From Escherichia coli (GTDB lineage: Bacteria; Pseudomonadota; Gammaproteobacteria; Enterobacterales; Enterobacteriaceae), in assembly GCF_045037415.1 (NCBI RefSeq), contig NZ_CP173438.1: a stretch of DNA of 64,000 bases. One strand, 5' to 3'. Position numbers and translations under genes: made by a program. The notes under the pieces are model-generated. The model did not search any database. It saw only the letters and a list, made by a program, of their open reading frames with translations, and had not been told where the DNA came from. Within the stretch, counting starts at the first letter, position 1; every line of letters starts with the position of its first letter. Shown here piece after piece: positions 57,857 through 57,964 of the stretch.

Positions 57857-57964
57857 TTAAAGCTGGATAAATAAATTGACGGCGGTATCGGTAATTTGAG
57901 GTTCGTTATAATTAAAAATGAATACAGAAAAGATAAATATAATTTTGGTGAATGTTTTTGACAT
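57857..57964 (-). CDS. Candidate small ORF (35 aa, hydrophobic) just upstream of ygcG
   Basis: Minus-strand ATG at 57962-57964 preceded by AAGGGA about 8 nt upstream; translates to [35 protein letters not shown]; stop 14 nt before the ygcG start. Unverified. Confidence 0.25.

What the first reader, a model, noticed from the sequence alone, without database searches (positions are those of the whole stretch)
57857..57964. Unannotated candidate 35-aa hydrophobic small ORF upstream of ygcG
Seen: a minus-strand ORF ([35 protein letters not shown]) with an AAGGGA Shine-Dalgarno-like sequence at appropriate spacing, ending 14 nt before the ygcG start. It is too short for the ORF track. It could be a small membrane protein or a leader peptide for ygcG, or nothing; evidence is weak.
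Basis: seen in the sequence. Interest (0 to 1): 0.25.

Follow-up and report, generated by a model that had tools for sequence, protein, structure and literature searches.

The report
Short allele of known yqcG gene
The 35-codon reading frame is real but not new: it is this strain's version of the known E. coli small-protein gene yqcG, which is itself the leftover front end of a decayed lemA gene and shows no sign of selection on its amino-acid sequence.

Summary
The ORF at 57857-57964 (-) exists as described: ATG, AAGGGA 7 nt upstream, stop 13 nt before ygcG. It is not an unrecognised gene. It lies at the yqcG locus between queE and ygcG. Residues 3-35 are 79% identical to residues 14-46 of K-12 YqcG (46 aa, 'cell envelope stress response protein'). 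The window has one extra A (A5, 57955-57959, against A4 in K-12). This splits the K-12 frame into a 28-aa ORF (57912-57998) and the 35-aa ORF. RefSeq annotates identical strains as a frameshifted pseudogene. The exact 35-aa peptide is already deposited (e.g. ANJ39177.1) on at least 1000 contigs. About 22% of 5,426 complete E. coli genomes carry this allele class, 51% the K-12 type and 27% an intact 200-aa LemA-family gene at the same place. The 35-aa ORF starts at the lemA start codon and keeps its frame for about 30 codons, all before the Pfam LemA domain. So yqcG is a lemA 5' relic. Substitutions among alleles look neutral (dN/dS about 1, against 0.3 for ygcG and 0.01-0.02 for queE). ORF length alone is not beyond chance. 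There is no attenuator or Rfam RNA. Verdict: a known locus, probably translated, probably of little or no function. Interest is low.

The parts
57857..57964 (-). 35-aa ORF. This is the short (A5) allele of yqcG, read from the ancestral lemA start codon.
   Evidence: 79% identical to K-12 YqcG residues 14-46. The exact peptide is deposited, e.g. ANJ39177.1.
57875..57964 (-). About 30 codons homologous to codons 1-30 of intact lemA, in the same frame and from the same ATG. They encode the signal/lipobox region that precedes the Pfam LemA domain.
   Evidence: 53/93 nt identical at the syntenic offset, 0 of 20,000 shuffles reach this. Alignments. The LemA domain covers residues 32-193.
57955..57959 (-). 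A5 run. K-12 has A4 here. This 1-nt difference decides whether the frame is entered from the lemA ATG (35 aa) or from the upstream ATG (46 aa).
57972..57977 (-). AAGGGA Shine-Dalgarno-like sequence, 7 nt before the ATG. AAAGGGA is conserved in clone D lemA; L004 has AAAAGGA.
57912..57998 (-). Overlapping 28-aa [31 protein letters not shown]. It starts at the K-12 yqcG start codon and goes out of frame after codon 14.
58008..58014 (-). AAGGGAG Shine-Dalgarno-like sequence, 9 nt before the upstream (K-12-type) ATG.
57997..58024 (-). Promoter-like match TTAATA-16-TATTAT. The CGTATTATGT block is invariant across the window, K-12 and clone D haplotypes. The -10 hexamer overlaps the upstream ATG.
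   Evidence: consensus scan only
57844..57856 (-). 13-nt spacer to ygcG. It holds the AGGA ribosome-binding site of ygcG (57855-57852), which overlaps the TAA-TAG double stop. The lemA-to-TPM gap is also 13 nt.
56971..57843 (-). ygcG, a TPM-domain protein and the downstream cistron.
   Evidence: PF04536, E 8e-36
58137..58808 (+). queE, divergently transcribed. The yqcG region lies in its upstream regulatory DNA.
   Evidence: Yadavalli 2016, PMC4974570.

Best explanation
The ORF is the window strain's allele of the known small-protein gene yqcG, and yqcG is a relic of the first ~30 codons of a LemA-family gene. Ancestrally the locus was queE <> lemA-TPM-TPM(-TPM)-eno, as it still is in about 27% of E. 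coli. In the other lineages the whole LemA domain was lost (inferred). What remains is lemA's promoter region, ribosome-binding site, start codon and signal-peptide-like N-terminus, then a short new tail and a stop 13 nt before the surviving TPM gene, ygcG. In the window (A5 allele class) this relic is still read from the original lemA ATG and gives 35 aa. In K-12 the loss of one A puts the relic in frame with an upstream ATG and gives the 46-aa YqcG. Mechanistically (inferred, not shown), the 35-aa ORF is probably translated as the first cistron of the ygcG transcript. It keeps the lemA ribosome-binding site in an unstructured AU-rich leader, and its termination next to the ygcG ribosome-binding site may help ygcG initiation. 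The upstream ATG should also fire and would give a 28-aa peptide. The peptide sequence evolves neutrally, so a sequence-specific function is unlikely.
For: Position and annotation: K-12 yqcG and the 'frameshifted hypothetical protein' pseudogene occupy the same coordinates. Homology to YqcG: 26/33 identical, E 5e-17. The single-base indel is shown. Intact lemA at the same place. The queE-start-to-ATG distance is 172 nt in both haplotypes, and 53/93 nt are identical from the ATG, with 0 of 20,000 shuffles reaching that. There is no gap between lemA and the window at the A-run, but there is a gap in K-12. A hybrid allele switches from lemA-type to relic-type inside the shared block. The family is confined to E. 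coli/Shigella, and no full-length relative shares the N-terminus. Population counts are 1,183 A5-type, about 2,777 K-type and 1,454 lemA of 5,426 genomes. Neutral evolution: relic pN 0.05-0.10 and dN/dS 0.5-2.1, against ygcG 0.25-0.36 and queE 0.01-0.02. The leader is unstructured (z = +2.39), with no Rfam family and no terminator. The exact peptide is already deposited and named.
Against: The protein-level match to LemA is not significant on its own (12/30, E 4.1). The 3' junction of the presumed deletion could not be found: local alignment scores of 14 and 11, against shuffle maxima of 17 and 18. The relic is about 41% diverged from extant lemA 5' ends (53/90 and 52/90 identical), so its parent lemA allele is unsampled, or the cassette arrived already degraded. 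No expression data for this allele could be reached. The dN/dS estimate rests on only 6-9 differences per allele pair in 32 codons. My hand tally of the and alignments gives about 12 inferred events, 10 non-synonymous and 2 synonymous. That excludes ygcG-like constraint only at P of about 0.03 (hand-calculated binomial), and several changes are conservative (F/L, I/V, L/I). The frame stays open in both allele classes, which fits weak selection as well as youth. The hybrid record contains Ns.
Confidence: 0.8

Rival explanations
1. It is a functional 35-aa envelope-stress small protein. The hydrophobic core, which both isoforms of YqcG share, is the active part and inserts into or associates with the inner membrane.
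For: The shared C-terminal 33 residues stay open and reachable from an ATG with a ribosome-binding site in both major allele classes, about 3,960 genomes. Several substitutions are hydrophobic-conservative. The K-12 protein is named for envelope-stress induction (Hemm 2008/2010 from my own knowledge, papers not held). The two 35-aa alleles are each seen on at least 1000 contigs.
Against: dN/dS is about 1 and the divergence equals synonymous divergence in ygcG. The hydrophobic run is only about 11-12 residues, with a 19-residue Kyte-Doolittle score of 1.18. 27% of E. coli lack the gene and have lemA instead. Many truncated or frameshifted forms are deposited. The N-terminal 13 residues of K-12 YqcG are simply absent here.
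Confidence: 0.15
2. It is a leader peptide or upstream ORF that regulates ygcG, either by attenuation or by translational coupling.
For: The stop lies 13 nt before the ygcG ATG and overlaps its AGGA site. The lemA-to-TPM spacing is the same in the intact operon. The ORF is rich in Phe and Ile.
Against: There is no terminator-like site. The RNA is less stable than all 200 shuffles. There is no Rfam hit. The spacer leaves no room for alternative hairpins. The arrangement is inherited from an ordinary operon junction rather than built for control. Simple coupling is already part of the best explanation.
Confidence: 0.1
3. The stretch matters as DNA rather than as a coding sequence. It would be cis-regulatory sequence for the divergent queE promoter (PhoP- and H-NS-bound AT-rich DNA), with the ORF incidental.
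For: Deleting yqcG in a delta-mgrB strain strongly raises queE transcription, and PhoP-P binds both 300-bp segments upstream of queE (PMC4974570). The spacer is listed as an RpoD SELEX site with an H-NS mark (PMC3946193). G+C is 30%.
Against: The ORF part diverges 6-9% between alleles, against 2-3% for the queE-proximal 141 nt, so specific sites inside the ORF are not obviously conserved. The deletion effect in K-12 could also come from the marker scar or from promoter interference.
Confidence: 0.15
4. It is a chance ORF in AT-rich intergenic DNA with no history as coding sequence.
For: 34% of shuffled spacers contain a closed ATG-ORF of at least 35 codons.
Against: It is homologous to yqcG and to the lemA 5' end in the same frame and from the same ATG.
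Confidence: 0.02

Closest known systems
YqcG of E. coli K-12 (46 aa, WP_001288228.1, 'cell envelope stress response protein YqcG')
   Same: Same locus, strand and neighbours (queE <> yqcG-ygcG). The C-terminal 33 residues are 79% identical. The stop is in the same position before ygcG (13-nt gap in both).
   Different: One extra A shifts the frame. The K-12 start codon now opens a 28-aa ORF, and the homologous part is read from a downstream ATG, which lies out of frame in K-12. The 13 N-terminal residues of YqcG are missing. RefSeq calls it a pseudogene.
LemA family protein (PF04011) of E. coli clone D i2 / Nissle 1917 / O157:H7 (WP_000488376.1, 200 aa)
   Same: Same position after queE. The 172-nt upstream spacing is identical, and the start codon and frame are the same. 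AAAGGGA precedes the ATG in clone D. The first ~30 codons are homologous. Both are followed after 13 nt by a TPM-domain gene.
   Different: The entire LemA domain (residues 32-193) is absent. The lipobox NLSGC is lost, and the tail LFIQL is unrelated.
Deposited 35-aa proteins ANJ39177.1, ASJ29581.1 and others ('small protein involved in the cell envelope stress response')
   Same: Identical sequence to the window ORF.
   Different: None. This is the same allele, annotated by submitters but not by RefSeq.

Membership tests
YqcG (E. coli small protein) | Encoded between queE and ygcG, on the ygcG strand, ending just before ygcG | tested here: met
YqcG (E. coli small protein) | Sequence similarity to K-12 YqcG | tested here: met
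   26/33 identical, E 5e-17
YqcG (E. coli small protein) | Uninterrupted 46-codon frame from the K-12 start codon | tested here: not met
   The extra A at 57955-57959 stops the frame from 57998 after 28 codons. PGAP flags it as 'frameshifted'.
YqcG (E. coli small protein) | Protein detected and induced by envelope stress | not testable with these tools
   The primary papers and ribosome-profiling tables are not held. Nothing is known for this allele.
LemA family (Pfam PF04011) | Presence of the LemA domain | tested here: not met
   No Pfam hit for the 35-aa or the 46-aa protein. In the intact protein the domain covers residues 32-193, all of it beyond the retained part.
LemA family (Pfam PF04011) | Descent from a lemA gene at this locus (same start codon, frame and upstream region) | tested here: met
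   The 3' junction is not resolved.
Attenuator leader peptide | Terminator/antiterminator RNA structure between the leader ORF and the regulated gene | tested here: not met
   0 terminator-like sites. Fold z = +2.39. 13-nt spacer. No Rfam family.
Single-pass small membrane protein | Hydrophobic segment long enough to span the membrane (about 18-20 residues) | tested here: inconclusive
   The core is about 11-12 residues. Kyte-Doolittle is 2.65 over 11 residues but 1.18 over 19. No dedicated transmembrane predictor or localisation data were available.

The most novel reading that the evidence does not exclude
An experimentally accepted E. coli small protein, YqcG, was born from the signal-peptide-coding stump of a deleted lemA gene. 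It now exists in the species as two stable isoforms that enter the same relic frame from different start codons because of a 1-nt indel. The 35-aa form found here, about 22% of genomes, is the ancestral one that still uses the lemA start. The 46-aa K-12 form is a derived 5' extension recruited from the former lemA 5' UTR. I found no paper linking yqcG to LemA in the searchable library.
Probability: 0.7. Interest if true: 0.3.

Novelty: already known. Interest (0 to 1): 0.12.

Why it matters
It matters little for discovery, because the ORF is a known gene's allele and its peptide is already in the databases. It has two modest uses. First, RefSeq labels about 1,180 complete genomes as carrying a frameshifted yqcG pseudogene, yet those strains keep an intact 35-codon ORF with its own ribosome-binding site. 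Work on YqcG in K-12 should therefore not be assumed to transfer to them, or to the 27% of strains that have lemA instead. The strains 100% identical to the window include FDN-4, which its authors describe as ST131-like. Second, it is a clean example of a validated small protein that is a gene remnant evolving neutrally. That is a caution against reading detectable translation as function.

Tried and rejected
1. Global alignment with cheap gap extension of the relic against lemA scattered the tail and was uninformative.
2. A local alignment to locate the 3' deletion junction was not significant.
It gave no outgroup species.
4. The search for homologous proteins refuses queries under 40 aa, so K-12 YqcG was used instead.
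5. NCBIfam and Pfam have no model that hits either YqcG form.
6. Hemm 2008/2010 and the published Weaver 2019 paper are not held. No supplements are held for the Weaver and Meydan bioRxiv versions or for the Vellappan preprint, and the latter's main text does not mention yqcG. I could therefore not check whether the ATG at 57964 is an active initiation site.
7. A type I toxin or sRNA reading was considered and dropped. There is no Rfam hit, no stable structure and no terminator, and the ORF lies in an operon position inherited from lemA.
8. Phase variation at the A-run was considered and dropped. The run is only 4-5 nt, and the two states are linked to many other SNPs.

Full report
**1. Observation.**
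The window is E. coli: pyrG, eno, ygcG (56971-57843, -), queE (58137-58808, +), then a LacI-family regulator and a sucrose-hydrolase-like gene. AAGGGA sits at 57977-57972, 7 nt before the ATG. Those 13 nt contain ygcG's AGGA site, which overlaps a TAA-TAG double stop. ORF length alone is unremarkable: 34% of dinucleotide-preserving shuffles of this 293-nt, 30% G+C spacer give a closed ATG-ORF of at least 35 codons.

**2. What it is.**
[quoted passage not shown] Strains identical to the window carry a 'hypothetical protein' there instead.
- In MG1655, yqcG is 141 nt and encodes [46 protein letters not shown].
- In a strain 100% identical to the window, PGAP annotates the same coordinates, one base longer, as a frameshifted pseudogene.
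- The alignment shows one extra A in the window after CATGTC: A5 at 57955-57959 against A4 in K-12.
- As a result the K-12 start codon (57998) now opens a 28-aa [31 protein letters not shown]. The homologous C-terminal part is read from the ATG at 57964, which is out of frame in K-12.
- Residues 3-35 of the window ORF match residues 14-46 of YqcG at 26/33 identical, E 5e-17.
- The exact 35-aa peptide is already public (ANJ39177.1, ASJ29581.1, CAD5516375.1 and a UniRef entry). It is named 'small protein involved in the cell envelope stress response' and has been seen on at least 1000 contigs.
So the ORF is neither new nor truly unannotated.

**3. Origin.**
A third group of E. coli genomes includes clone D i2, Nissle 1917 and O157:H7. 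At exactly this place they have a 200-aa LemA-family gene followed by two or three TPM-domain genes.
- The distance from the queE start to the lemA ATG is 172 nt, the same as to the window's ATG at 57964.
- From that ATG, 53 of 93 bases are identical without gaps. This is the best offset in the whole locus on either strand, and none of 20,000 shuffles reached it (maximum 44).
- lemA and the window need no gap at the A-run, whereas K-12 does. The window therefore keeps the lemA frame.
- Pfam places the LemA domain at residues 32-193 (E 4e-48). The relic keeps only the roughly 30 codons before the domain, that is, the signal-peptide-like segment. The lemA lipobox NLSGC has been lost.
- A deposited hybrid allele, MLRIFIVIIFIFSVLVFND..., is lemA-type upstream and identical to K-12 downstream of the shared AATTATATTTATTTT block. 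That record contains Ns, so it is weak support.
- A search of 5.8 billion proteins with YqcG found 121 short proteins. The named ones are all from E. coli or Shigella, and no full-length relative appeared.

There are limits to this origin claim. The protein-level match to LemA is not significant alone (12/30, E 4.1). The 3' end of the deletion could not be located.

**4. Population.**
Matched short queries give the counts below. They sum to 5,414 of 5,426 genomes.

| Allele class | Genomes | Notes |
|---|---|---|
| Window-like (A5) | 1,183 | 554 at >=99% identity, 65 at 95-99%, and 564 in a second family at 90-95% |
| K-12-type yqcG | about 2,777 | 46-aa frame from the upstream ATG |
| Intact lemA | 1,454 | 200-aa LemA-family gene |

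All eight sampled window-like loci have A5. Six give a 35-aa ORF. Two also have extra Ts in a T-run, in assemblies that also show ygcG frameshifts, so these may be sequencing errors.

**5. Selection.**
Nei-Gojobori counts over the 32 shared codons give 6-9 differences per allele pair, with Nd 4-8, Sd 1-2 and dN/dS 0.5-2.1. Relic pN (0.05-0.10) is about equal to pS of ygcG (0.07-0.12). By contrast ygcG has dN/dS 0.25-0.36 and queE 0.01-0.02.

The queE-proximal 141 nt of the spacer differ at only 3-4 positions between the same strains. My hand tally of the and alignments gives about 12 inferred events across alleles, 10 non-synonymous and 2 synonymous. A hand-calculated binomial excludes ygcG-like constraint only weakly (P about 0.03).

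**6. Mechanism.**
- Shown: the ORF keeps the lemA start codon and an AAGGGA site. It lies in a leader that is less structured than all 200 shuffles (z = +2.39). There is no terminator and no Rfam family. It stops 13 nt before ygcG, the same gap as between lemA and its TPM gene.
- Inferred: it is translated as a vestigial first cistron of the ygcG mRNA and may pass ribosomes on to ygcG. The upstream ATG probably also fires and would give a 28-aa peptide. The peptide itself probably has no sequence-specific role.
- The hydrophobic run is about 11-12 residues, the size of a signal-peptide h-region. Its 19-residue Kyte-Doolittle score of 1.18 is below the 1.6 threshold, so 'small membrane protein' is doubtful.

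**7. Literature.**
- yqcG was published in 2008 (Hemm et al., cited in PMC5821084). The primary papers are not held. The envelope-stress induction is taken from the RefSeq product name and from my own knowledge.
- In K-12, deleting yqcG in a delta-mgrB strain raises queE transcription, and PhoP-P binds DNA here (PMC4974570).
- The spacer is an RpoD SELEX site with an H-NS mark (PMC3946193).
- No paper in the searchable library links yqcG or ygcG to LemA in this sense.
- Ribosome-profiling tables could not be reached.

**8. Verdict.**
The locus is already known. The one mildly new point is that YqcG is a lemA stump with two start-codon isoforms, of which the window's 35-aa form looks ancestral. 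Interest is low.

Noticed in passing
window 58893-61335 (-): A LacI-family regulator and a sucrose-6-phosphate-hydrolase-like gene (csc/scr type) lie directly beyond queE. K-12 has a CRISPR array and ygcE there. PMC12054123 lists 'cra, sacX, scrBKY, and yqcG' as one genomic island among FDN E. coli strains. One of these, FDN-4, is described as ST131-like and shares the window's yqcG allele at 100%.
   Followed up: partly
L007 1169-2042, L008 1170-2043, L009 1168-2040, L014 1207-2079: PGAP flags ygcG itself as a pseudogene (frameshift or internal stop) in several strains. This may mean the whole remnant operon is decaying, or that some assemblies have homopolymer errors.
   Followed up: no
L004 587-3873: This E. 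coli strain has lemA followed by three tandem, overlapping TPM-domain genes (1173-2090, 2084-2995, 2989-3873). The last is nearly identical to YgcG in its C-terminal two-thirds but has a different N-terminus. YgcG of the window and K-12 may therefore be a chimera left by recombination between paralogues.
   Followed up: partly
L016 2686-4931: In strain wlxctx60 the lemA/yqcG-ygcG side is replaced, straight after queE, by an N-acetylmannosamine-6-P epimerase gene and a PTS IIBC gene. This is a fourth, rare configuration of the locus.
   Followed up: no
H1, NZ_CP021207.1 1905023-1906350: Strain Z247 carries an IS1A insertion inside this otherwise 100%-identical stretch.
   Followed up: no
L005 1-413: A 413-nt contig labelled Corallococcus aberystwythensis encodes a fragment 93% identical to E. 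coli YgcG. This is probably contamination of that assembly.
   Followed up: no
window 57997-58002 (-): The TATTAT -10-like hexamer is invariant across the window, K-12 and clone D haplotypes. It overlaps the K-12 yqcG start codon. If it is the operon's real -10, transcripts from it would lack the K-12 start but include the lemA-derived start. No transcription-start data were available.
   Followed up: no
window 56971-57060 (-): YgcG ends in a Gly/Ser-rich tail ([27 protein letters not shown]). The TPM paralogues in L004 have the same kind of tail.
   Followed up: no
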